Positions 1,026-64,000 of a DNA stretch of 64,000 nucleotides are shown piece by piece. The position numbers were made by a program, and so were the translations under genes. Each line of letters starts with the position of its first letter. Within the stretch, counting starts at the first letter, position 1. The notes beneath the pieces were generated by a model. That model was given only the letters and a program-made list of their open reading frames with translations. It did no database searches and was not told the origin of the DNA. Source of the stretch: Caldicellulosiruptor naganoensis (GTDB lineage: Bacteria; Bacillota; Thermoanaerobacteria; Caldicellulosiruptorales; Caldicellulosiruptoraceae); assembly GCF_026914285.1 (NCBI RefSeq), contig NZ_CP113864.1:148582-212581 (forward strand). Direction: 5' to 3'.

Positions 1026-3230
1026 ATGAGTAAAAGATACTATTGTGTAAAGCAGCATGATATAACCGATTGTGCAGCAGCGAGCATAGCAACAATTTGC
1101 TTGCAATATGGAAAAGAAGTATCGATAGCCAGAATAAGGCAGATAGCAGGGACAGACAGGTTTGGCACCACAGCATATGGAGTTGTAAAAGCGGCAAAAG
1201 AGCTTGGATTTGAAGCAAAAGCAGTCAGGGCAGAAGCAAAAGAAGCAATATTTGAGAAGATACCACTTCCGTGTATAGCACATGTACTGATAGATGGCAA
1301 GCTATTTCATTATGTAGTAATACATGAAATAAAAAAAGAAAGGATAGTAATAGCAGACCCTGCAAAGGGAATAGTTAAGCTAAAGCCAGAAGAGTTTTTT
1401 AAAATATGGACAGGCATTTTGATATTTCTTGTGCCAAATGAGAGGTTCAAGAAAGGTAAGCAAGAGGGAGTTTTGAAGAAGTTTTTTAAACTGCTGGGTT
1501 TGCAGAAGAGCTTGATATTGAATATTTTTGCAGTGTCAGTTGTATATACCTTGCTTGGTATAGCGGCAGCATTTTATTACAAGTTTTTGATGGATGATGT
1601 AATACCAAATCTTTTGAAGAATACACTTCACGTTATAGCAGCAGGTGCGATACTGATTACAATATTCAAGGTGATATTAGGAGCATTCAGGGTAAGGCTT
1701 TTGATACATTTAAGTCAAAGATTAGATATTAAGCTGATGCTGGGGTATTATGAACATGTGATTAAGCTTCCGATGAGTTTTTTTGGTAGCAGGAAGATAG
1801 GGGAGATAATTTCGAGGTTTATGGACGCGTCAAAGATAAGGGATGCGGTATCAGGTGCAACGCTGACGCTAATGATAGACAGCATAATGGCAGTGGTAGG
1901 CGCAATTATTTTATACCTGCAAAATTCCACGCTGTTTTTTATATCGCTTGTGATGGTTTTGTTATATGCAGCAGTAGTGTTTGGATTTAACAGGGCATTG
2001 AGGGAAGCGAACAGGCAGGAGATGGAAGACAATGCAATTTTAACATCGTATTTGGTAGAGTCACTGAATGGGATAGAGGTAGTAAAGGCATTTAATATAG
2101 AAGAGGATGTAAATTTTAAGACTGAGAGCAAGTTTGTAAAGCTTTTGAAAGATGTTTTCAAGGTAGCGAATTTAAACAATTTGCAAAGTAATATAAGCAG
2201 TGCAATAGCAGCGGTAGGAGTTATAGTGATACTGTGGGTAGGTGCAGACAAGGTAATAAATGGGCAGATGAGCATAGGAGAGTTGTTTACGTTCAATGCA
2301 CTGCTTGCATACTTTGTAGACCCGATAAAAAATCTGATAGGATTGCAGCCGATGTTGCAGACGGCGATAGTTGCAGCCGAAAGGCTTAGTGAGATTTTGG
2401 AACTTGAGAGTGAGTTTCAAGGTGATGAAGACAGGAAATTATCACCCAGTTTGAAGGGAGATATAGAGATAGAGGGTTTGAACTTCAGATACGGTACAAG
2501 ACAGCTTGTGCTGAGGGATATAAATCTTAAGATAAGAAGAGGAGAGAAGATAGCGATAGTAGGTGAGAGTGGTTCAGGTAAGACCACGTTAGCAAAATTG
2601 CTTTTAGGATTTTATGATTATGAAAGCGGAGAGATAAGAATAAATGGCTATAACTTAAAGGATATAAACAAGAAGTATTTGAGGGAGAAGATAGCATATA
2701 TATCTCAAGACATTTTCTTGTTCAGTGGGACGATATTTGAGAATCTGGTGCTTGGAAACAGAAATTTAAAAATGGAAGAAGTAATTGAAGTGAGCAAATT
2801 AACAACACTGGACGAGTTTGTAGCAAAACTTCCTTTGAGATACAATACCATGATAGAAGAGAATGGAGCTAATTTGTCAGGCGGGCAGAAACAGCTAATA
2901 GCAATAACCAGGGCACTTTTAAAAAATCCTGAGATAATAATAATGGATGAAGCGACCAGTAACCTTGACTCTGTAACCGAGCAGGCGATAGGAAAGGTAA
3001 TAGAGAAGGTATGTGAGGGGATAACCACTATAATAATAGCGCACAGGCTATCTACGATTTTAAAATGTGACAGGGTTGTGGTAATGCATGAAGGCAGGAT
3101 AGTAGAGGTAGGGACACATGAAGAACTCATGGCAAAGAAAGGATATTATTATAACCTGTGGAGAGAGCAGCTGATGGGACTTGAGCAAAAAGGACTTTTG
3201 GATTCTGTTGGGAGTGCAACATTAAGATGA
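1026..3230 (+). CDS. Bacteriocin/peptide-export ABC transporter (permease plus ATPase) with an N-terminal C39 double-glycine peptidase domain (ComA/LagD type)
   Basis: The N-terminus has QHDITDCAAASIATI (C39 catalytic Cys context) and HYVVIHE...ADP (His/Asp). Six TM segments follow. Walker A is GESGSGKTT, the signature is LSGGQKQ, Walker B is IIIMDEATS. The gene is 734 aa. Confidence 0.9.
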   Translation: MSKRYYCVKQHDITDCAAASIATICLQYGKEVSIARIRQIAGTDRFGTTAYGVVKAAKELGFEAKAVRAEAKEAIFEKIPLPCIAHVLIDGKLFHYVVIHEIKKERIVIADPAKGIVKLKPEEFFKIWTGILIFLVPNERFKKGKQEGVLKKFFKLLGLQKSLILNIFAVSVVYTLLGIAAAFYYKFLMDDVIPNLLKNTLHVIAAGAILITIFKVILGAFRVRLLIHLSQRLDIKLMLGYYEHVIKLPMSFFGSRKIGEIISRFMDASKIRDAVSGATLTLMIDSIMAVVGAIILYLQNSTLFFISLVMVLLYAAVVFGFNRALREANRQEMEDNAILTSYLVESLNGIEVVKAFNIEEDVNFKTESKFVKLLKDVFKVANLNNLQSNISSAIAAVGVIVILWVGADKVINGQMSIGELFTFNALLAYFVDPIKNLIGLQPMLQTAIVAAERLSEILELESEFQGDEDRKLSPSLKGDIEIEGLNFRYGTRQLVLRDINLKIRRGEKIAIVGESGSGKTTLAKLLLGFYDYESGEIRINGYNLKDINKKYLREKIAYISQDIFLFSGTIFENLVLGNRNLKMEEVIEVSKLTTLDEFVAKLPLRYNTMIEENGANLSGGQKQLIAITRALLKNPEIIIMDEATSNLDSVTEQAIGKVIEKVCEGITTIIIAHRLSTILKCDRVVVMHEGRIVEVGTHEELMAKKGYYYNLWREQLMGLEQKGLLDSVGSATLR

Positions 3231-4627
3231 GAGAGGTAATATATGATTTTGGTGAACTTAGAGAAAGCAAGCTTTTGTATGAATCAGAGATTCCAAGGTA
3301 TGGACTTTTTATTACATATATTTTGCTTGCCTTAGTGATAGGACTTGTTTTGTGGAGTGTGGTAGGAAAAATTGATATAAATGTGAAGGTTCAAGGGATA
3401 ATAAGACCCTGGGAAGATGAAGCAAAGGTGATAAGTTATGTTGGAGGGAAGGTAAAAGAGGTTTTTGTAAAAGAAGGTGAATATATAAAGAAAGGTGATA
3501 TTTTATTTAAGATTGATGATGAGGAATATGTGAAGAAGAGGGATTTTTTGGAACAGCAACTTAGCGAATATGAGAAAAAAGTTAATGATTTAAAAGAATT
3601 GAGAAATAGCATAGAAAAAGGAGAAAGCCTCAGGAATAAAAATAATGCATACTATTTGAGGTACTTGAGCTATAGTTATGAGGTAAACAAGCTAAGAAAA
3701 GCTGCAGAAGAAGCAAGAGTGCAAAGAGAATACAGTATAATGGAATTTAAAAAGCAGATGGAGAGTTTGGATGAGAAGATTAAAAATATTAATAGATTTG
3801 AAAGCACGTTAAAAGAAGTAAAGGAAGTTGTAAGCAAAGGCGAGCAAGTTAAGCTAACGAAATACGACATAGGGTATTTGGAATTTATATTGAGTGAAAT
3901 AGAGGCTTACAATCAGCAGGTGAAGACAAAATTGGATGGTAGTAATATACAGAAGAAGATTTTAATATCGAAAATAGATTCAAAACTTGATGAGCAGAGA
4001 GAGTCAAAAAGTGAGATGATTTTGCAGAAACAGAAAATAGAAGGGCAGCTTGATTTGTTAAACATTTCGGGTGATGATACAAAAGAAGAAATTGAAAAGT
4101 ATAAGTTTGAAATGCTACAGCAGATTGATAATGAGATTAGTAATTTAAGCAGTGAAATAAAGAATTTAAAAATCAGTTTAGGTGAAACAGAGAAGTTGAT
4201 AGAAAGCTGTAATATAAGAGCGGAAAAAGATGGATATGTAGAATACAGTGCAAATCTTCTCAATGGAGCGGTGATAAATAGCGGAGCTGAGATTGGCAGA
4301 ATAGTTGGCAGTGGGTCAAGAGGATTTAGGGTTATTGGATACATACCAAACACAAAAAGCAGTGGCATAGAAAGAGGGCAAAGAGCAAAGGTAAAGATAG
4401 CAGGAGCAGATGTGTTGAAAGTATTGGAAGGGAAGGTTGTAAGGGTATCGCAGGATATAAAGGCAATAGGCCAGAGTGGGCAAGGGTTTTATGAGGTTGA
4501 GGTAGAAGTAAAGAAAGTTCCAAAAGGTATTAATTTGAGGGCAGGGCAGGCATGTGAGATGAGCATAGTGGCTAGGCAGGAGCGGTTGATTGAATGGGTA
4601 TTAAAGAAGTTGGGATTGAGGTTTTAA
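3227..4627 (+). CDS. HlyD-family secretion accessory (membrane-fusion) protein for the bacteriocin exporter
   Basis: It has an ATGA overlap with the upstream ABC gene and an N-terminal TM helix (LFITYILLALVIGLVLW). Long coiled-coil segments and a C-terminal beta-barrel-like region are present. The gene is 466 aa. Confidence 0.8.
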   Translation: MREVIYDFGELRESKLLYESEIPRYGLFITYILLALVIGLVLWSVVGKIDINVKVQGIIRPWEDEAKVISYVGGKVKEVFVKEGEYIKKGDILFKIDDEEYVKKRDFLEQQLSEYEKKVNDLKELRNSIEKGESLRNKNNAYYLRYLSYSYEVNKLRKAAEEARVQREYSIMEFKKQMESLDEKIKNINRFESTLKEVKEVVSKGEQVKLTKYDIGYLEFILSEIEAYNQQVKTKLDGSNIQKKILISKIDSKLDEQRESKSEMILQKQKIEGQLDLLNISGDDTKEEIEKYKFEMLQQIDNEISNLSSEIKNLKISLGETEKLIESCNIRAEKDGYVEYSANLLNGAVINSGAEIGRIVGSGSRGFRVIGYIPNTKSSGIERGQRAKVKIAGADVLKVLEGKVVRVSQDIKAIGQSGQGFYEVEVEVKKVPKGINLRAGQACEMSIVARQERLIEWVLKKLGLRF

Positions 4628-7458: not shown

Positions 7459-8901
7459 TTAGGCAATAAGTTTTTTAAGTTTTTGAAGTTTTTTGTAAGA
7501 GATATTTTGGTGATGTTTTAGTATGGCATAAGAGAGAATAAAGAGTAAAAGCATACAAATAGCAGAGAGTAAGAAGTCAGAAAAAAGTGAAATATGGTCA
7601 TATGAGAAAATGGTATCATGACCGAGAAAAGACTTTAGATTAAAAATAGTTTGCTCGATAGTAACTCTGGATTTGTAAAGTTGATAAAACTGGTCAGAAT
7701 TTCTATCGATACCTGGATAATACCGCAGGTTGGCATCCGGGTATGTATAGAACATCCTACCTGACTTAGAAGTAGTACAAGGATGTGGGCAAGTGCAAAA
7801 GCGTTTATTGTCTTTAATCTGAGAGCAAGGGCAGCGCCATTTAATTCTTGGGGAGCGATTTTTACCATTACAAAGACCTTCGTAGATAAAAGGTTTATTT
7901 AGTTTATTACAGAAGGGTATACCGTTTTGTGAGATAGTGATGTTAGGGTCAGAGGTAGGAGTATATGAGGTTTGGTTAGAATTTCTGGGGTTAATAGGGA
8001 TTATGACTTTAGAGAAATTGAAATCTTTGATGAGAGAAGAATAGACCATGTAAGAGTCAAGAGCACTGTCGGCGATAAAGGTTGAAAACTGATTGGATTG
8101 GAAATTGTGGTTTAGGTTAATCAAAGCGGGAATAAGAGCTTTTGAATCAGAGATAGCTTTAGAAAAAGCAGGGTCTTGAGGGTCATCAGAAGAAGGACAG
8201 AAGGCAGGAGTGATTACAAGAGGTAAACCAAATCCATTAGTGATGATAGCGAATTTGTATCCATAGCAGAAATGACCATTAGCGAACATACGAGTGATAT
8301 AAGGTGAAGCAGAAGCAGATTTGGGGAGGTTTGAGTATGTGAGATAATACACAGCAGAGGAAGTAAGGTTAGGGTTTTGAGATTTAGTTTTTCTGAGCAT
8401 AGATTGGATGAACTTAGGGTTATTTTCTTTGAGCATAGGAACTAAGGCGGTTGTGTCGAATATGATGCAAGAAGCAAGATCAGGGTTTATTTCAAGTGCA
8501 ATATTTTGAGCATATTTTGCGAGGTTATAAAAGACGTTTTCGATTTCGGAGCAAAAGATTTTTCTAAATCTTGAGAATGTAGAGATAGAGGGTATAGTAT
8601 CGAAGTTGCAGAAAGATTTAAGCTGGTAAGAGTTGAGCAAGACAGCACGGAGTTGAGTTAAGGTAGAGAATTTGAAGATTTTTTGGATGAAGAAAGCACA
8701 TAACATAGATTGCAAAGAGAAGCATCTATGTTTACCGAAGTATTTATAGTAGGCTTTAAAGAAGGATTGAGGGATGAAGCTTTTGATATTGATGTATTTG
8801 TTGAAGAAGCCAAGAAGGTTATGAGGGTTATTGAGAGCGAGGTTTTTAACGTCCTCATAAAGTTCTAAAAAAGAGAGTTGTTTATTATGATTTTTAAACA
8901 T
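7459..8901 (-). CDS. Intact DDE transposase of an IS4/IS1182-like insertion sequence
   Basis: This is a 480-aa ORF with DDE-region signatures (IIFDTTAL, FIADSALDS, YQLYKSRVTIEQTIFNLKS). The element ends were not resolved. Confidence 0.65.
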   Translation of the reverse strand: MFKNHNKQLSFLELYEDVKNLALNNPHNLLGFFNKYINIKSFIPQSFFKAYYKYFGKHRCFSLQSMLCAFFIQKIFKFSTLTQLRAVLLNSYQLKSFCNFDTIPSISTFSRFRKIFCSEIENVFYNLAKYAQNIALEINPDLASCIIFDTTALVPMLKENNPKFIQSMLRKTKSQNPNLTSSAVYYLTYSNLPKSASASPYITRMFANGHFCYGYKFAIITNGFGLPLVITPAFCPSSDDPQDPAFSKAISDSKALIPALINLNHNFQSNQFSTFIADSALDSYMVYSSLIKDFNFSKVIIPINPRNSNQTSYTPTSDPNITISQNGIPFCNKLNKPFIYEGLCNGKNRSPRIKWRCPCSQIKDNKRFCTCPHPCTTSKSGRMFYTYPDANLRYYPGIDRNSDQFYQLYKSRVTIEQTIFNLKSFLGHDTIFSYDHISLFSDFLLSAICMLLLFILSYAILKHHQNISYKKLQKLKKLIA

Positions 8902-11372: not shown

Positions 11373-12474
11373 AGATTGTTGAATAAAAGAAATAACCATA
11401 TAGAGTAAACATAGAAAAAAAAGAAAAAATCCCCCTTGTGTTATAATTTTAATTTAAGAGAAAAACACAAAAAAACACAAGGGGGAAAAGATATACATGA
11501 ATATTAAATCACAAAATGAGAAATTTTCAAAGCTGCTTTTTGTAATAAAAAGGTTACTGAAGTTTTATCGAGGAAGATAAAGCAAAATAGAAGGGGACGA
11601 CCGAGGAAATTTAATCTGTTTCAGATAATAGCTTGTTTGGTTTATAAAGTTAAAAAGGGGATAAAGAGTTTCAGAGAATTAGAATATCGAATAAATCAAA
11701 ACAAAGAGTTTAAGCAAGTAGTAGGTATAGAAGAAAGTCCGGACTATTCATATTTTGCAAAGTTATCAAGAAAAATAGAAGAAGAATACATGCAAGATAT
11801 AAAAGATGTATTAATAGCTGAAATAGAACCTGATATGAGTATAGTGATAGTAGACTCTACGCCGCTTAGAAGTGCCAAAAATGATTCAGAAGCAAAAATA
11901 GGTATACATATTACAATAGGATTTTACAGGGGATACAAATTACATTTTTTGTGTACAGGTAAAGAAGAAGTAATACCACTTTTCTGGATTTTACAGAGGC
12001 AAATGAATAGACGTGCGACAAGAAGAGCTTTTGTATAGGGCATGGGGCTCTTTGGCTGTGAGATTGTATTAGCAGATGCGGGATACGATTGTAGTAGAAT
12101 AGTTTAATATAGCAAATGAGCTTAAAGTTAAATTTGTTGCCGGGATAAACAAAAGAAACATGAAAGATATAAACAATGTTAGCAATAGTTTTAAAAGCAA
12201 GAACATAAGATTTTTAGAAACTGAAGAGGGTAAAAAGTTATACAGGCAGAGAACAAAGATTGAAAGACTACTTAGCAAATTAAAAGGTGAATATAATCTT
12301 GAGAATGTAAGGCTCAAGGGATTTAGAAATTATAAAAGGTATATTGATTGGATACTAACCTGTTTGAGCAACTTCTTAGAAAGTTAGAAGGTAAAAAGTT
12401 TTCTTTCGCTTATGAATGGAATCAATAATTTATGTTTGTTTTATGCATTGCTGGTAATATTTTTTATTCAACAA
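11373..12474 (+). mobile_element. Roughly 1.1-kb IS5/IS4-like insertion sequence with terminal inverted repeats (ggttgttgaataaaa / ttttattcaacaacc)
   Basis: TIRs at 11373-11390 and 12458-12474. An internal subterminal hairpin is present. There is an inverted partial second copy at 1-556. Confidence 0.75.
11637..12387 (+). pseudogene. Degenerate DDE transposase of the IS (in-frame TAG at 12036, 1-nt frameshift near 12102)
   Basis: The N-terminal part spans 11637-12038. The LADAGYD (DDE) segment after the TAG is in the same frame. The C-terminal part, ...YRQRTKIERLLSKLKGEYNLE..., lies in the +1 frame. Confidence 0.7.
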
Positions 12475-24954: not shown

Positions 24955-25140
24955 AGTAAATTTTTTATTGATTTTGAGTATTTTACTTCTGATTACCTCT
25001 CAAGTAGTTCTTCCAACAATTTTTTTAAAGCTGAACAAGAAAAATCTTGCTAATGACAATGTTGGTCTAATACTTTTTCTATGGCTATATTTTTAACAGT
25101 TTCACAGGTATTTTTATCCTTTGAGCCAACCTCCCTTATA
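24955..25140 (-). pseudogene. Second, short IS256-family transposase N-terminal remnant
   Basis: Minus-strand ETVKNIAIEKVLDQHCH...SALKKLLEELLER parallels ETAKNMAIEQVLNMYCF...PALKQLLENLLD of the element at 18800-20040. Confidence 0.4.
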
Positions 25141-25189
25141 ACACTATAATATATCAGGTATATGTCATGCACAATTTTATTTTAACCCC

Positions 25190-25585
25190 TTGCGTTTTTG
25201 GGATAATATAGTATTAAAAGCAGCAAATGTTAATACAAAGGAATACAGTGCAAAAGAACATGTGAGCCATCTATTATCAGATAGGATGAGTTCAAACCCA
25301 AGAGGATGGAGCAAACAAGGAGCAGAAGTGATGGTAAAGATATTGAGTTTTAAGTATAATGGTGTAAACTTGAAAGAAGCATATTTAAAAGAAATTTGTA
25401 GCAATGAAGAGAATGAAGAAAAAATATTAAAAGAAATTGTAAGAAAAAATGTTAAGAAGATAAAGAAACAGATTGAGGAGACGAGGAATAATGTACCAAT
25501 TTTAGCAAGAGGAAAAGTTGATTTGACGTTTAGAGTACTGAAAGGGCTAAGTACTGGAGATTTCTTAAATGCAGTCGTGTTTTAA
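25190..25585 (+). pseudogene. C-terminal fragment of an ISLre2/UPF0236-family transposase
   Basis: ...SHLLSDRMSSNPRGWSKQGAEVMVKILSFKYNG... has no N-terminal catalytic portion. Confidence 0.45.
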
Positions 25586-25716
25586 TAAAAAATTTCCCTA
25601 CAAACTCTTGACACTATCAAAGAAGAGTGTGAACTTGAGAATGTTTTTGGTTTGGAGTAAGATATAATGTAGCAAAATAAAGAAAAATTCTTGCAGTAAG
25701 AGAGGATTTATATAAG

Positions 25717-27940
25717 ATGCTTCAACACATAAAAGGTATGGTAAGCGATATTATATATAGAAACTTAGAAAGCAACTACACAGTGTTTGAGATACTCTGC
25801 GATGATGAGGTTTTCACAGCAGTTGGAGTTGTACCAGACATTGTAATTGGTGAAAAGGTAAAGGTGTACGGAGAGTTTTATGTCCACCCGATCTATGGTC
25901 AGCAGCTTAAAGTGTCGTACCTTGAAAAGCTTTTGCCAGAGACGAAGGATGAAATTTACCTCTACCTTTCTTCAGGTGTCATCAAAGGCATTGGGCAGAA
26001 GACTGCAAAGAGGATTGTTGATACATTTGGCGATGATACAATGAGAATTTTGCAGGAAGAGCCGGAAAAACTTTTATCAATCCGGGGCATGATCCCTGAA
26101 AAAGTTGAGAGGATAAAGAATATGTTTTCATTCCAGAAGTTTTTGAAAGACATCATGACAATATTTTCCCAGTATGGACTTTCACAAAACCATGCAATGA
26201 AACTTTTTAAATTGTATGGTTTTTCAGCTTTGGGGCTACTTTATGACAACCCCTATTTTTGCTTGATGTATTTCCAGAGCTTGACTTTAAAAAGGTTGAC
26301 AGGCTTGCATTTGACTTGGGAGTTTCACCTGACGATATGAGAAGGATTTCAGCAAAGATTGTAAATCTTTTAAACATAGGTAGCAACAATGAAGGACATA
26401 CATGCCTGCCAAAAGAAAAACTTATTTTGCATGTTTCAAAGGCGCTTGAACAAGATACAGAAAAGGTAGAAGAAGCACTTGACAGTCTTGTAAAAGCAAA
26501 GAGAGTTGTTATTGATACTATTGACGGCCTTGAGATGGTTTTTTATATGGATTTTTTGAGTGCGAAAGGTATATCGCAGAAAAAATTGTCTCAATGGTGA
26601 AAGAATACGATGACATTTTAGACATAGATGAAAGGATTTTTGAGTTTGAAAAGAAAAACAATATAGTTTTTTCTCAGAATCAAAAAAAAGCTATCAAGAT
26701 GGCCCTAACTCAAGGTGTAAGTCTGATTACAGGAGGGCCCGGTACAGGCAAGACTACGATTATAAAATGTATAATAGAGATATTTGAACAGGAAGGCAAG
26801 AAGGTTTTTCTTTGCGCACCAACTGGAAGGGCAGCAAAGAGGATGCAAGCAGCCTGCCAGAAAGAGGCAAAGACTATTCACAGACTTTTGGAAATGACTG
26901 TAACAGACTCTCAAGTATTTTTTCAAAAAGGGCCCAATAATCCTTTGAGATGTGATGTCATTATAGTTGATGAGATGAGCATGGTAGACAGCTACATCAT
27001 GTACTATCTTCTTTCTGCAACAAAAGATACAACAGGACTTGTTTTAGTTGGCGATAAAGACCAGCTTCCTTCTGTTGGTGCAGGAAATATCTTAAAAGAC
27101 CTGATAAGAAGCGATGTTGTTCCATATGTAAAGCTTACTGAAGTATACAGGCAAAGTGAAGATAGCTTTATAGTTCTAAATGCACACAGGATAAACAATG
27201 GAGAGTTTCCGCACCTTCAGAAAAACAGCGATTTTTATTTTATTCAGAAAAATTCTCAGGAGGAAATACTAAAAACAATTGTTGAACTTGTAACAAAAAA
27301 GCTACCAAACTACTTATCAGCCGACCCACTGACAGATATTCAAGTTTTATGCCCGTCTAAAAAGGGAATTGTTGGAATGTACAATATAAACAAAGTGCTT
27401 CAGCAATATTTAAATCCCAAAGATGGGTCCAAAAAAGAGGTTGTGTACAAAGAGAACACCTTCAGAGTTGGCGACAAGGTTATGCAGATTAAAAACAACT
27501 ACTCGCTTGAGTTTACAATTATTGAAGGTGAGGAGAAAGGTAAGGTCTCAACAGGGATATTCAACGGCGATATTGGGGTTATTAAGGACATTGACAGGGC
27601 AGGCGGTGCAATGGAGATTGTATTTGACGATGACAAGCTTGTATTTTACGACTTTTCGCTCTTGGATGACTTGGAACTTTCTTATGCAATGACAGTTCAC
27701 AAATCCCAAGGGTCTGAGTTTAGGTGCATTGTAATGCCAGTTGTTGAGACCTACCCGATTTTAATGACAAGAAACCTTCTGTACACAGCAGTTACGCGCG
27801 CAAAAGAGCTTGTTGTGCTGGTGGGTAAAAAAAGTGCCTTGGAGTACATGATAGCAAACCAAAAAGAGGCTATGCGATATTCAGCACTTTACGACTTTTT
27901 AAAAAGGAAGCTAAAAGATACGCAATTGCAAGCTTTATGA
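25717..27940 (+). CDS. recD2: RecD2-like ATP-dependent DNA helicase, split into 3 ORFs by two single-base frameshifts at homopolymers (T5 at 26256-26260; A6 at 26580-26585)
   Basis: An N-terminal HhH region is followed by GGPGTGKTT (Walker A), IIVDEMSMVD (Walker B) and C-terminal helicase motifs. The total length of about 741 aa matches RecD2. Adding 1 nt to each run restores the frame. Confidence 0.8.
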
Positions 27941-28425
27941 TATCAGGTATTACAAATGGTGCAACACCTACCAAAAAAGCCTTTTTTAAAGTAAGATGAG
28001 CAGCAGCTGCTAAAAACAAAAATCCCAATGTATAAATTAAGCACAGACCGACAATGAGAGCAAAAGCTGCGTTTATAATATCATTTTTTATTGGCTTTTT
28101 TGTATTTATATAGCTTGTTACAAATGCAGCAATTGGAAAAGCTATTAAATACCCACCTGTTGGTCCAACAAACTTAGAGAGCCCACCAGAAAATCCTGCA
28201 AAAACAGGGACCCCAACAGCACCTAAAAGGTCATAGACAAGAAGGCTTAAAAAAGCATACTTTGGTGGCAAAATTAAGCTTGCCAAGAAAATTGCAAAAA
28301 CTTGCATAGTAAACGGCACAGGACCGATTTGGAATAGAGATTTGGCTACATGCAGCAACTACTGCTGCAAAAAGGGCAGAGAGAACGAGCATTTTTGTTG
28401 TATATGTGCTCTTTGTATATTTCAT
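27870..28425 (-). CDS. bioY: BioY biotin transporter (ECF S-component) with an apparent 1-nt insertion near 28328-28330
   Basis: The N-terminal part MKYTKSTYTTKMLVLSALFAAVVAACSQISIP and the downstream part GPVPFTMQVFAIFLA... lie in adjacent frames. Confidence 0.65.
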
Positions 28426-28726
28426 ATTTTTTGCCCCCTTAAAGTAAACTTTCTATTTAAAAATGGTTTACTAAAAATATAGCAAGGAAGTAGACAATTG
28501 TCAAGAAGGATGATGGGTGGTTTTGAAAAATCAAAAGAATTTAAATAAATGAGATGAAAAGAAAAAGATTTCGGTACTGCTTTTTTAAATTAATGTAGGT
28601 ATTGACAACTTTGTATGGTTGTATTATTATAGATATAAAAAGGCACATTTTTAATTTTCTTTGGTTCCAAACTCTGGTTTTAAAGAAACATAAAAAGTTT
28701 AGTAAAAATTTGGAGGGAAATAAATT

Positions 28727-33164: not shown

Positions 33165-35243
33165 ATGTCAGTTTTAGAAAAACTTGTTGAGATTCTGAAT
33201 AATAAAGCAAAAGAGTGGGATGCAAAAAACGATTTCAGAGTACCAAAACTTTGGGATAGTTTCGGCTATGATGGGTTTGAGAAAAAAGAAAACAATGATG
33301 GTACAATCTCAGTAAACCCTTATAAGTTTGTTGCACAGGCGATAGAAAAAGCAATTTTGCCTTATATGAAAGATAACACTGATTATCTTCAGCCACTTTC
33401 TAAAATACTTTCTAAACACAATAGACCTTCAGAAAAAACTTATAGCAGCTGGATCGAAAAGAGCAGTGTATATGGTATGCAAATTCGTACATTTTCAGCC
33501 TGGGATCATGACTTATCAAAAGAACTTGAACTTGAAAATAGCTTCGGTCTAAAAGATACAGGTACATTTGTTAAAACAATTGCACTGCTGCCTCATATAA
33601 AAAGAATGGGTTTTGATGCCATTTACGCTCTTCCAATTACCAAAAACAGCACAAGGTATAAAAAAGGTGAGATGGGCTCGCCTTATGCAGTCAAGAACTT
33701 TTTTGAACTTGACCCAGTGCTTTTTGACCCTATGGCAGATAAGCTTTCAATAGATGAACAATTTAAAGCTTTGATTGAAGCGTGCCATATTCTTGACATA
33801 AGATTTATAATTGATATTATTCCACGCACATCTGCAAGGGACTCTGATTTTATACTGGAACATCCTGACTGGTTTTACTGGATTAAAATAGAGGATTTAG
33901 AAGACTACGGTCCACCAAAGCTGACTTTGATAAAAGAGTTTACAAAGGCAAATGAAGAAAATATTGAGCTTATATACAAGGATCCGGCTGTGCAAAAGCA
34001 TATTAAAAAGTTTGTACCATCACCTGACAGGTTTGACCCTCAAAAGTGGCAAAGTATAAAAGAAAGGTGCGAAAAAGACAAAAACCTTGACTTTTTCGAG
34101 CTAATTGAAAAAGAGATTGGGATAACTACTGCACCAGCTTTTTCAGACTGTCTTAATGACCCGCAGCCGCCATGGTCAGATGTGACGTATTTGAGGCTGT
34201 ATCTTGACAATCCTGTGCAGTCTGCAAAGTATGTAGATGAAAGCCAGCCGCCGTATATTCTTTTTGATATTATAAGAGGAAATATCTTCAAAGGCAAAAA
34301 GCCAAACAAAGAGCTTTGGGAAAAAATTGCAAGCATCATTGTACATTACCAGAAGAACTTTGGTATAGATGGTGCAAGGATTGACATGGGTCATGCTCTT
34401 CCAAAAGAACTGGAAGACATGATAATTTCAAATGCCAGAAAAGTAGACCCCGAATTTTGCTTTATTGCAGAAGAACTTTCGATGAATGCACACAGAAAAG
34501 CAAAAGAGTCAGGGTATGACATGATAATAGGTGATCTTTGGGCAAGAGAACCACGATACTATCAAGGAACGCTGAAAAAGGTTTTGGATATACTTTTGCA
34601 GCTTGAAGTTCCTGTTTTTGCGGCATGTGAGATTCCAGACAGTCCGCGCGCAGCTTCAAGGCTTGGAAAAAGAGAATTTTCACGGTTTGCGACAGTTTTA
34701 AATTTCTTTTTACCAAACAGTGTGCTTTTTGTCACGTGCGGGCAGGAAGTTTATGAAGTTCAGCCAATGAATTTAGGTCTTGACCCGCAACCAGAAGGCA
34801 AGTTTATGCTTTCTAAATCAGACCCTCTTTATGGTAAGCTTGCGTTTTTTGATAAATACGCCCTTCACTGGACAAACGAAGGTGCAGATGAAATGATAGC
34901 TTTAATTGAAGAAGTAGCTAAGATAAGAAAAGAATATTTGGACTTTATGAGTGAAGAAAACTTTTTCAAGATTCCTCACAACAGCAAATTTGTCTTGGCA
35001 TTTGGATACAAACTTTTTACTGAACATGAGAAGCAGTACCTGATTGTGGTTGCAAATGCTGATATTTTACGAAAAAGAAAAATAAGGTTGGATTTGATGA
35101 AAGCAGGTTTATTTGATGTGGGGAAAGGAAGACAAATTGAGTGTATCTACTCTCTAAAAGGAGATAAAAATAATGCTTACGATTTTCCACATGTTACAGT
35201 TGATATGGAAACTCTTGATATAAAAATTTTGAAGGTAAAATAA
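33165..35243 (+). CDS. Alpha-amylase-family (GH13-like) protein, intracellular
   Basis: A GFDAIYALPI beta2-like strand, ILDIRFIIDIIP (region I-like), GIDGARIDMGHALP (region II) and CFIAEELS (region III Glu) are present. Confidence 0.55.
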   Translation: MSVLEKLVEILNNKAKEWDAKNDFRVPKLWDSFGYDGFEKKENNDGTISVNPYKFVAQAIEKAILPYMKDNTDYLQPLSKILSKHNRPSEKTYSSWIEKSSVYGMQIRTFSAWDHDLSKELELENSFGLKDTGTFVKTIALLPHIKRMGFDAIYALPITKNSTRYKKGEMGSPYAVKNFFELDPVLFDPMADKLSIDEQFKALIEACHILDIRFIIDIIPRTSARDSDFILEHPDWFYWIKIEDLEDYGPPKLTLIKEFTKANEENIELIYKDPAVQKHIKKFVPSPDRFDPQKWQSIKERCEKDKNLDFFELIEKEIGITTAPAFSDCLNDPQPPWSDVTYLRLYLDNPVQSAKYVDESQPPYILFDIIRGNIFKGKKPNKELWEKIASIIVHYQKNFGIDGARIDMGHALPKELEDMIISNARKVDPEFCFIAEELSMNAHRKAKESGYDMIIGDLWAREPRYYQGTLKKVLDILLQLEVPVFAACEIPDSPRAASRLGKREFSRFATVLNFFLPNSVLFVTCGQEVYEVQPMNLGLDPQPEGKFMLSKSDPLYGKLAFFDKYALHWTNEGADEMIALIEEVAKIRKEYLDFMSEENFFKIPHNSKFVLAFGYKLFTEHEKQYLIVVANADILRKRKIRLDLMKAGLFDVGKGRQIECIYSLKGDKNNAYDFPHVTVDMETLDIKILKVK

Positions 35244-63066: not shown

Positions 63067-63732
63067 TCAGACTCCTCTTTCTCTATCTGGCCAGATTATT
63101 TTGTGAAGCTGAAGCTGAAGCCGGCAGTTTTGAAGCTTGTTTTGTATCATAAAATCCACAATTTCTTTTGGTTCGATTTTTCCATACACCGGGCTAAAAT
63201 AGATGTTACAGCTTGGCTCAAATGTGCGGATTATTTCAACAGCCCTTTGCAAATCTTGTCTTGTCCCCACAACAAATTTTAAAACGTCCTGCTTTCCAAG
63301 ATGCTTTATGTTTTCAAGGAACATCTTATCTTCCATGCCGCTGGATGGACATTTGTAGTCCATTGTGATAATGGCATTTCTGTTCACATCTCTTATATCA
63401 ACAGACCCATTTGTTTCAATATTAACTTCAAAGCCTTCTTTGATAAAAGCGTCAATGAGCTCATGTATATGAGGCTGTATCAAAGGCTCACCGCCTGTCA
63501 GCGTAACTTTTTTAAAACCTGTTGATTTTGCATATTCGAGTATTTGTTGGGCAGCCATCTGGTCATATTCAGGGTTTTGAGTGGCATATTTTGTATCACA
63601 AAAAGAGCAAGAGAGATTGCACCCTGCAAATCTGATAAAAATGGCCGGATACCCACTTCTTATTCCTTCACCTTCAATGCTGACAAACTTTTCAACAACT
63701 TTAAAAGATGCTTTGTCCAACATCTTTTCCAC
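63067..63732 (-). CDS. queE: 7-carboxy-7-deazaguanine synthase (QueE), paralog 2
   Basis: VSIEGEG and FIRFAGCNLSCSFCDTKY. 221 aa. Confidence 0.85.
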   Translation of the reverse strand: MEKMLDKASFKVVEKFVSIEGEGIRSGYPAIFIRFAGCNLSCSFCDTKYATQNPEYDQMAAQQILEYAKSTGFKKVTLTGGEPLIQPHIHELIDAFIKEGFEVNIETNGSVDIRDVNRNAIITMDYKCPSSGMEDKMFLENIKHLGKQDVLKFVVGTRQDLQRAVEIIRTFEPSCNIYFSPVYGKIEPKEIVDFMIQNKLQNCRLQLQLHKIIWPDRERGV

Positions 63733-63876
63733 CCTGCACTTTGTGGTTTTTGATAGTTATAAGATTAATATACACATAAGAAAAATGCAACAAAAAAGCC
63801 ACCTCTTGAATATACCCAAGAGATGGCAAAATTTCAAATGAGCTTATTTATCAGCATCCAGGCAGGACACAAAACC

Positions 63877-64000
63877 AACTCTATCCCCCAACGGCAGGCT
63901 ACAAACCAAAGCGGTAGTTTGGTTAATACAGGAACAGCAGGAACTTTATTTCAATCCCCAAAAGGCAGGCTACAAACCAAGAGAAATGGGAGTATCAAAA
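63877..64000 (-). CRISPR. Probable start of a CRISPR array (two 30-bp repeats, 71-bp period; minus-strand repeat GTTTGTAGCCTGCCTTTTGGGGATTGAAAT), continuing past the window end
   Basis: Copy A at 63877-63906 (aactctatcccccaacggcaggctacaaac) and copy B at 63948-63977 (atttcaatccccaaaaggcaggctacaaac) are 25/30 identical. The spacer is 41 nt. The repeat has GTTTG...ATTGAAAT termini typical of type I/III repeats. Confidence 0.45.

What the first reader, a model, noticed from the sequence alone, without database searches (positions are those of the whole stretch)
63877..64000. Probable CRISPR array beginning at the window edge
Two 30-bp repeats with a 71-bp period sit at 63877-63906 and 63948-63977. 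The distal copy carries 5 mismatches, typical of a degenerate terminal repeat. On the minus strand the repeat reads GTTTGTAGCCTGCCTTTTGGGGATTGAAAT (GTTTG...ATTGAAAT ends typical of type I-B/III repeats). A 41-nt spacer separates them and a new spacer begins before the window ends. Only two units are visible, so this is provisional.
Basis: seen in the sequence. Interest (0 to 1): 0.55.

Follow-up and report, generated by a model that had tools for sequence, protein, structure and literature searches.

The report
Old end of a CRISPR array

Summary
Confirmed and ordinary. The repeats lie exactly where stated: 63877-63906 and 63948-63977, 71-nt period, 5 mismatches between them.

The window matches Caldicellulosiruptor naganoensis NA10 contig LACN01000003.1 with no mismatch over 10,934 bp. 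That contig carries 17 further perfect copies of GTTTGTAGCCTGCCCTTTGGGGATTGAAAC beyond position 64000. In total there are 19 repeats and 18 unique spacers of 35-41 nt.

The array is transcribed on the window's minus strand, from a leader outside the window. The leader has a perfect TTGACA-17-TATAAT promoter and is conserved upstream of dozens of related arrays. The window therefore holds the trailer (oldest) end, not the beginning. It also holds an intrinsic terminator at 63788-63827.

There are no cas genes within about 8 kb on the leader side, nor in the roughly 67 kb of contig on the trailer side. Another contig of the same genome has a complete type I-B operon (cas4-cas1-cas2-cas8b-cas7-cas5-cas3). 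That operon is flanked by two arrays with the identical repeat and homologous leaders, so this array is most likely served in trans.

Spacer 2 resembles C. bescii plasmid pATHE02. I could not locate a Cas6 or Cas10 gene for this species.

Novelty: already known. Interest: low.

The parts
63877..63906 (-). Repeat 19, the terminal degenerate repeat (GTTTGTAGCCTGCCGTTGGGGGATAGAGTT). It has 6 mismatches to the array consensus, and the 3' ATTGAAAC tag is lost.
   Evidence: No Rfam CRISPR-DR2 match, even at E<=1.
63907..63947 (-). Spacer 18, 41 nt, the oldest and leader-distal spacer (AAAGTTCCTGCTGTTCCTGTATTAACCAAACTACCGCTTTG on the minus strand).
   Evidence: No match in phages, plasmids, viral contigs or the organism's own held sequence.
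63948..63977 (-). Repeat 18, the penultimate repeat (GTTTGTAGCCTGCCTTTTGGGGATTGAAAT). It has 2 mismatches to consensus, and its tag reads ATTGAAAT.
   Evidence: Rfam CRISPR-DR2 scores 32.7 bits, below the gathering score of 37.
63978..64000 (-). The 3' 23 nt of spacer 17 (36 nt in full). The rest of the array lies past the window end at extended coordinates 64001-65109 (L001 8615-9723): 17 perfect repeats and spacers 1-16.
   Evidence: The window-L001 overlap of 10,934 bp has 0 mismatches.
63788..63827 (-). Intrinsic terminator 49 nt downstream of the last repeat. Stem-loop GCCATCTCTTGGGTATATTCAAGAGGTGGC (63798-63827) is followed by TTTTTTGTTG (63788-63797). It separates the array transcript from queE.
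   Evidence: L001 9897-9926, + strand: 13 pairs, 6 G-C. This is a consensus scan only; function is inferred.
63861..63873 (-). Possible vestige of a further decayed repeat (TTTGTGTCCTGCC against TTTGTAGCCTGCC, 11/13) a few bases past repeat 19. Weak evidence.
   Evidence: local alignment score 9, reached by 47 of 2000 shuffles.

Best explanation
The feature is the trailer (leader-distal, oldest) end of a genuine 19-repeat, 18-spacer CRISPR array of Caldicellulosiruptor naganoensis NA10.

Shown:
- The array's structure, its unique spacers and its orientation signals.
- A leader that is conserved upstream of related arrays.
- An identical repeat and homologous leaders at the type I-B cas locus of the same genome.

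Inferred:
- The array is transcribed on the window's minus strand from a sigma-70-type promoter in the leader, about 1.1 kb past the window end, and stops at a hairpin terminator inside the window, before queE.
- The precursor RNA is cut within each repeat by a Cas6-type endoribonuclease. This leaves the 8-nt 5' tag AUUGAAAC on each guide RNA.
- The guides are loaded onto the type I-B Cascade/Cas3 machinery encoded on another contig, which destroys matching plasmid or phage DNA.
- New spacers are added at the leader end by Cas1-Cas2-Cas4 acting in trans. The leader-distal repeats are therefore never renewed and have drifted. That is why the two in-window copies are degenerate.
For: The window is identical to LACN01000003.1 over 10,934 bp. 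The organism is named in PMC4432334 and PMC10019236.

The array has 19 repeats, 17 of them perfect, and 18 unique spacers of 35-41 nt. Rfam CRISPR-DR2 scores 42 bits against a gathering score of 37 for all 17 perfect repeats.

Orientation rests on several signals:
- A 12/12 promoter with an extended TG lies 20 nt upstream of repeat 1, and a terminator follows repeat 19.
- The 244 nt next to repeat 1 are 81-88% identical upstream of arrays in 29 metagenome loci.
- The -35 and -10 boxes are conserved in 45 distinct leaders.
- Repeat decay occurs only at the distal end.

The same assembly, contig LACN01000012.1, carries cas4-cas1-cas2-cas8b-cas7-cas5-cas3. This operon is flanked by a 26-repeat and an 8-repeat array with the identical repeat on the same strand. 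Their leaders are 81% and 72% identical to this one.

A metagenome contig with the same repeat has the full I-B operon, with every protein above its NCBIfam cut-off. The related repeat family sits directly downstream of I-B cas1b in two unrelated Bacillota.

Spacer 2 matches C. bescii plasmid pATHE02 at 29/32. Five of the 7 full-length mismatches fall at third codon positions. The only two plasmid records hit among 72,556 are both from Caldicellulosiruptor.

The AUUGAAAC tag, and an AUUGAAAU variant, were shown by RNA-seq for 30-nt repeats of C. thermocellum (PMC3479195).
Against: - No cas gene lies within about 8 kb on the leader side or about 67 kb on the trailer side, so use in trans is inferred.
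- No Cas6 or Cas10 protein labelled C. naganoensis appeared in the protein searches, although other Caldicellulosiruptor species have them. The processing enzyme in this genome is therefore unidentified.
- Seventeen of 18 spacers have no detectable target. The one match is diverged (29/36) and would not be significant on its E-value alone (0.3).
- Rfam reports its CRISPR-DR2 matches on the opposite strand.
- The repeat has no significant secondary structure (z about 0).
- There are no expression data.
Confidence: 0.9

Rival explanations
1. The array is a fossil. It was once supplied by a neighbouring cas locus, is now stranded far from cas genes, and no longer acquires spacers or contributes to immunity.
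For: No cas genes on about 75 kb of surrounding contig. Seventeen of 18 spacers have no known target. The two distal repeats are decayed. A 2.9-kb duplicated RecD2-BioY block ends 77 bp from the RecD2 start next to the leader, which suggests local rearrangement.
Against: Seventeen repeats are still identical to each other and to the cas-linked arrays of the same genome. The leader keeps a perfect promoter and the motifs conserved in 45 related leaders. Decay limited to the distal repeats is normal for active arrays. Remote arrays sharing repeat and leader with a cas-linked array are commonly used in trans (established knowledge of multi-array genomes).
Confidence: 0.12
2. The guide RNAs from this array mainly arm a type III (Csm/Cmr) RNA-sensing complex rather than type I-B Cascade.
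For: In metagenome contigs the identical repeat also lies next to Cas10/Csm1 (688 bits), Csm3 and Cas6 genes. Csx1 and a TIGR02221-family protein flank the C. naganoensis I-B operon. The spacer 2 guide would be complementary to the mRNA of its plasmid target gene.
Against: No Cas10/Csm1 attributed to C. naganoensis was found among 120 listed homologues or in the cluster members read. The only effector module shown in this genome is I-B. The orientation argument rests on a single spacer.
Confidence: 0.1
3. The two in-window copies are a chance or local duplication unrelated to CRISPR.
For: Only two imperfect copies are visible in the window, and neither reaches the Rfam gathering score.
Against: Seventeen further perfect copies with regular 65-69 nt spacing continue directly beyond the window on the source contig.
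Confidence: 0.01

Closest known systems
The two cas-linked arrays of the same genome (C. naganoensis LACN01000012.1; L226 6220-7916 and 18261-18756), which flank the type I-B operon
   Same: Identical 30-nt repeat, same spacer length range, and homologous about 250-nt leaders at 81% and 72% identity.
   Different: This array is on another contig with no cas gene nearby. All spacers differ. Its trailer abuts queE.
Clostridium thermocellum 30-nt-repeat CRISPR loci processed by Cas6 Cthe_2303 (Richter et al. 2012, PMC3479195)
   Same: 30-nt repeat ending in ATTGAAAC, which yields the 8-nt AUUGAAAC 5' tag. A terminal-U tag variant also occurs there, like ATTGAAAT in window repeat 18.
   Different: The repeat interior differs. 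Processing has not been demonstrated in Caldicellulosiruptor, and the Cas6 of C. naganoensis was not located.
Rfam CRISPR-DR2 (RF01315)
   Same: The 17 perfect repeats score 42 bits against a gathering score of 37 over the full 30-position model.
   Different: The two in-window repeats fall below threshold (32.7 bits and no match). Rfam's model strand is opposite to the transcription direction inferred here.
Widespread thermophile repeat family GTTTGTAGCCTACCTATGAGGGATTGAAAC (Caldatribacterium, Armatimonadota, Ammonifex, Sulfobacillus, Desulforadius and others)
   Same: Same ends (GTTTGTAGCCT...ATTGAAAC), same 30-nt length, and direct linkage to type I-B cas1b.
   Different: Five interior positions differ. 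The GCCCTTTGGGG interior was found only in the Caldicellulosiruptor plasmid and in the metagenome contigs that share this array's repeat and leader. A Bacillota MAG (L061), 3 mismatches away, is the closest outside.

Membership tests
CRISPR array (generic definition) | Three or more near-identical direct repeats of 23-50 nt, regularly interspaced by unique spacers of similar length | tested here: met
   19 repeats of 30 nt, 17 of them identical. 18 unique spacers of 35-41 nt, period 65-71 nt. Only 2 repeats lie inside the window.
CRISPR array (generic definition) | A leader with a promoter at one end, conserved between arrays of the same repeat type | tested here: met
   TTGACA-17-TATAAT (12/12, extended TG) lies 20 nt before repeat 1. 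The 244-nt leader is 81-88% identical in 29 metagenome loci and 72-81% identical in the same genome. The leader lies outside the window.
CRISPR array (generic definition) | Degenerate repeat(s) at the leader-distal end | tested here: met
   Repeat 18 has 2 mismatches and repeat 19 has 6. Repeats 1-17 have none.
CRISPR array (generic definition) | cas genes in the same genome, associated with the same repeat | tested here: met
   GCA_000955735.1 contig LACN01000012.1 carries cas4-cas1-cas2-cas8b-cas7-cas5-cas3 between two arrays with the identical repeat.
CRISPR array (generic definition) | Spacers derived from mobile genetic elements | tested here: inconclusive
   Spacer 2 matches pATHE02 at 29/32 (29/36 over full length), with mismatches concentrated at third codon positions and the hit in a same-genus plasmid. 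The database E-value is only 0.3, and the other 17 spacers have no match.
CRISPR array (generic definition) | Transcription and processing into guide RNAs | not testable with these tools
   No RNA data available. Promoter and terminator are consensus predictions only.
Rfam CRISPR-DR2 (RF01315) | Covariance-model score at or above the gathering score of 37 bits | tested here: met
   42 bits for each of the 17 perfect repeats. The in-window copies score 32.7 bits and nothing, which is why the window-wide gathering scan was empty.
Type I-B-associated array | Repeat shared with arrays adjacent to a type I-B cas operon (Cas8b, Cas7/Csh2, Cas5b, Cas3, Cas1b) | tested here: met
   Shown in the same genome. 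Shown in metagenome locus L154, with all seven proteins above NCBIfam cut-offs.
Type I-B-associated array | Repeat 3' end giving the 8-nt AUUGAAAC tag after Cas6 cleavage | tested here: met
   The consensus ends in ATTGAAAC. The tag was shown experimentally for C. thermocellum 30-nt repeats (PMC3479195). In-window repeat 18 has ATTGAAAT and repeat 19 has lost the motif. Cleavage itself was not tested.
Type I-B-associated array | A Cas6 endoribonuclease encoded in the genome | tested here: inconclusive
   Two Cas6 families lie next to arrays with this repeat in other Caldicellulosiruptor species and metagenomes. None was attributed to C. naganoensis, but the whole genome could not be scanned.
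Type III-A-associated array | Cas10/Csm1 effector operon in the genome using the same repeat | tested here: inconclusive
   Cas10/Csm1 and Csm3 lie next to identical repeats in metagenome loci. No C. naganoensis Cas10 was seen among the hits or cluster members.

The most novel reading that the evidence does not exclude
C. naganoensis may lack a recognisable Cas6, since none was attributed to it in any search here, while keeping three intact arrays and a complete I-B operon. If so, guide-RNA maturation from this array would use a non-canonical route, such as a host RNase or an unrecognised Cas6-like protein. The AUUGAAAU-tagged guide and the guide bounded by the decayed last repeat would then be natural test substrates.
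Probability: 0.06. Interest if true: 0.4.

Novelty: already known. Interest (0 to 1): 0.08.

Why it matters
It matters little beyond correct annotation. The result confirms that a two-copy, imperfect repeat at a window edge can be a real CRISPR array end. It also shows that threshold-based scans miss such ends: Rfam at gathering score found nothing in the window.

For the organism, it adds one remote array of 18 spacers to the I-B-linked arrays. It also gives a hint that C. naganoensis met a pBAS2/pATHE02-like plasmid. That is of practical interest because pBAS2-derived shuttle vectors are used in Caldicellulosiruptor genetics (my own knowledge, not tested here). A matching spacer could lower transformation efficiency.

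Tried and rejected
- An exact-repeat scan of genome contigs found nothing. The degenerate scan returned 113 loci, none from Caldicellulosiruptor, so that collection apparently lacks the genus and could not supply the organism's cas loci.
- The array against phages gave no match.
- Four viral-contig scans gave 0 hits: cores of spacers 18, 17 and 2, and the repeat itself.
- No spacer of this array is shared with any of the 105 metagenome loci, and no queE synteny was found there.
- I checked for self-targeting of the 50 spacers of the three C. naganoensis arrays (the script's 51st was the pCALKR01 spacer) against about 125 kb of the organism's sequence. Only 11-16-nt chance matches appeared.
- Repeat folding gave weak 3-bp hairpins no better than shuffles, with no consistent structure between variants. 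I dropped the idea of a conserved hairpin with a compensatory change.
- I rejected Rfam's strand call as a guide to orientation, because promoter, leader conservation, decay polarity, terminator and co-orientation with cas operons all agree on the other strand.
- A full-text search for the AUUGAAAC string returned mostly irrelevant papers.
- The attempt to find the Cas6 and Cas10 of C. naganoensis through homologue searches and cluster listings failed.
- I looked for a preQ1 riboswitch upstream of queE. No Rfam match was found.

Full report
**Observation**

The window ends with two 30-nt copies at 63877-63906 and 63948-63977. They are 71 nt apart and differ at 5 positions. A 41-nt spacer lies between them, and 23 nt of a further spacer run to the window end (repeat finder family D2).

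Within the window the repeat has no other copy. The shared 14-mer is mildly more frequent than chance: 2 observed against 0.35 expected. A window-wide Rfam scan at gathering thresholds found nothing. On the window alone, then, the case was only suggestive.

**Extension beyond the window**

The adjacent gene (63067-63723, minus strand) encodes a radical-SAM QueE-like protein. An exact-protein look-up placed it on NCBI assembly GCA_000955735.1, contig LACN01000003.1 (93,890 bp), and returned 10 kb on each side as locus L001. The window and L001 overlap for 10,934 bp without a mismatch. L001 position equals 73724 minus window position.

The accession belongs to 'Thermoanaerobacter cellulolyticus' NA10 DSM 8991, now Caldicellulosiruptor naganoensis (PMC4432334 and PMC10019236).

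Beyond window position 64000 the contig carries 17 further copies, all identical: GTTTGTAGCCTGCCCTTTGGGGATTGAAAC. They are spaced 65-69 nt apart. The whole array is L001 8615-9847, with 19 repeats and 18 spacers of 35-41 nt, all different.

Against the consensus, the two in-window copies are:
- repeat 18, with 2 mismatches
- repeat 19, with 6 mismatches

With the permissive Rfam threshold, the 17 perfect repeats each score 42 bits on CRISPR-DR2 (gathering score 37). Repeat 18 scores 32.7 bits and repeat 19 does not match. That explains the empty window scan.

**Orientation and anatomy**

Five independent signals agree that the array is read on the window's minus strand (L001 plus strand), from a leader outside the window towards the window.

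- A 12-of-12 sigma-70 consensus (TTGACA, 17 nt, TATAAT, with an extended TG) lies at L001 8566-8594, 20 nt before repeat 1.
- The 244 nt next to repeat 1 are 81-88% identical to sequence immediately upstream of arrays in 29 metagenome loci. They are 81% and 72% identical to the leaders of two other arrays in the same genome.
- An alignment of 45 distinct leaders conserves a CTGGATAGACGGAA box, the -35 and -10 elements, and a TTGATATAATAAAATCAAG palindrome next to the first repeat.
- Repeat decay is confined to the far end.
- A 13-bp hairpin followed by a T-tract lies 49 nt after the last repeat, at window 63788-63827, before queE.

In addition, arrays of this repeat family are co-oriented with adjacent cas operons when read as GTTTG...GAAAC. 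Rfam reports its matches on the opposite strand. I give that no weight against these signals.

The window thus contains the trailer end, not the start, of the array. A 13-nt stretch just past repeat 19 (63861-63873) may be a vestige of one more repeat, but this is weak: 47 of 2000 shuffles score as well.

**cas genes**

Gene calls with Pfam hits for the whole window and both flanks show no cas gene for about 67 kb on the trailer side and about 8 kb on the leader side. The leader-side neighbours are a RecD2-like helicase and BioY.

The genome-contig collection proved to lack Caldicellulosiruptor. It did show that the wider repeat family (GTTTGTAGCCTACCTATGAGGGATTGAAAC and variants, 5-6 mismatches from this repeat) is spread over many thermophile phyla. 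In Desulforadius, that family sits directly downstream of I-B cas7-cas5-cas3-cas4-cas1b. In a Clostridiales MAG, it sits directly downstream of cas1b.

A metagenome scan with the exact repeat returned 105 loci. In L154 two such arrays flank cas4-cas1b-cas2-cas8b-cas7-cas5b-cas3, and every protein is above its NCBIfam cut-off. Clustering all ORFs near these arrays also found the following neighbours:
- Cas10/Csm1 (688 bits)
- Csm3
- a TIGR02221-family protein
- two Cas6 families
- Rpn-family nucleases
- a DUF234 ATPase

Using the L154 Cas8b as query, the second-best hit (91% identity) is annotated as from C. naganoensis. Its encoding contig is LACN01000012.1 of the same assembly. There, cas4-cas1-cas2-cas8b-cas7-cas5-cas3 is flanked by a 26-repeat and an 8-repeat array. 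Both carry the identical repeat on the same strand and have homologous leaders. A Csx1 and a TIGR02221-family gene lie alongside.

The array in the window therefore shares repeat and leader with cas-linked arrays of its own genome. That is the basis for inferring service in trans.

I could not find a Cas6 or a Cas10 attributed to C. naganoensis, although several other Caldicellulosiruptor species have them. The whole genome could not be scanned with these tools, so this stays open.

**Spacers**

The array has no match in the phage collection. In the plasmid collection only two of 72,556 records match, and both are from Caldicellulosiruptor.

- Plasmid pCALKR01 carries its own two-repeat mini-array with a near-identical repeat.
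- Spacer 2 matches C. bescii plasmid pATHE02 at 29 of 32 positions, inside a 330-aa ORF with sub-threshold tyrosine-recombinase similarity.

Over the full 36 nt of spacer 2 there are 7 mismatches, and 5 of them fall at third codon positions of that ORF (my reading against the annotation). This pattern is expected if the spacer came from a related plasmid's homologue. The E-value alone (0.3) would not carry the claim. The same-genus coincidence and the codon pattern do.

No spacer targets the organism's own held sequence. Viral-contig scans for three spacer cores and for the repeat were empty.

**Mechanism**

The following are shown:
- the array architecture
- the conserved leader
- the shared repeat with a complete I-B module in the same genome

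The following are inferred from established knowledge:
- Transcription starts at the leader promoter.
- Cas6 cleaves 8 nt from the repeat's 3' end, leaving an AUUGAAAC tag. This was shown by RNA-seq and in vitro for 30-nt repeats of Clostridium thermocellum, where AUUGAAAU variants are also processed (PMC3479195).
- Guide RNAs are loaded onto Cascade, with Cas3-dependent DNA degradation.
- New spacers are inserted at the leader end.

The repeat itself has no significant predicted structure.

For the in-window units specifically, spacer 18 would carry an AUUGAAAU tag and a 3' flank that has lost the Cas6 site. Its guide RNA, if made, depends on 3' trimming or on the terminator.

**Comparison and verdict**

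This is a standard member of a well-described class. It lies in a genus reported to carry multiple CRISPR arrays and up to six cas clusters (PMC7145573), and in a public genome. Nothing about repeat, spacers, leader or context departs from expectation.

Novelty is 'already known' and interest is low.

Noticed in passing
window 25634-28505, compared with extended coordinates 65408-68276 (L001 5448-8316): A 2.9-kb direct duplication at 92% identity carries a RecD2-like helicase and BioY. The in-window copy of the helicase is broken into 207-, 94- and 448-aa ORFs, while the copy next to the CRISPR leader is intact (741 aa). Weaker similarity (75%) continues into a 692-aa amylase-like gene (window 33180-35063). 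The duplication ends 77 bp upstream of the RecD2 start, so the CRISPR leader itself is unique.
   Followed up: partly
L120 3002-3097 (plasmid pCALKR01, NC_014719.1 12234-12329): A 15,970-bp Caldicellulosiruptor acetigenus plasmid carries a two-repeat mini-CRISPR array with one 36-nt spacer and no adjacent cas genes. Its first repeat is 1 mismatch from the C. naganoensis repeat. No target for its spacer was found in plasmids or phages.
   Followed up: partly
L001 8711-8746 (array spacer 2), compared with L119 301-332 (pATHE02, NC_012037.1 1812-1843): The spacer matches a 330-aa ORF of the small C. bescii plasmid at 29/32, with mismatches mostly at third codon positions. The ORF has only sub-threshold phage-integrase Pfam hits. 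The guide RNA would be complementary to the mRNA strand.
   Followed up: yes
metagenome loci L121-L225, for example L216 4911-6311, L121 8564-9697 and L216 1412-2389: The ORF families most often found next to arrays with this repeat include a 466-aa ATPase_2/DUF234 protein (14 loci) and two Rpn-family (PD-(D/E)XK recombination-promoting nuclease/transposase) clusters (11 and 7 loci). TnpB is also present. Their relation to the arrays was not examined.
   Followed up: no
L226 2246-2275: A solitary repeat-like sequence (3 mismatches, ending ATTGAAAT) lies about 4 kb upstream of array A in the C. naganoensis I-B locus, next to the csx1 gene.
   Followed up: no
window 1026-4627 and scattered sites (7459-8901, about 12000-12400, about 25100-25600): There is a bacteriocin-type ABC exporter with a Peptidase_C39 domain plus a HlyD-like partner. 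Several transposase fragments (DUF772, DDE_Tnp_1, UPF0236) are also present, which suggests an insertion-sequence-rich, rearranged region.
   Followed up: no
Genome-contig collection: Neither the exact repeat nor a degenerate pattern that should match Caldicellulosiruptor repeats returned any Caldicellulosiruptor record. The genus appears to be absent from, or masked in, that collection.
   Followed up: partly
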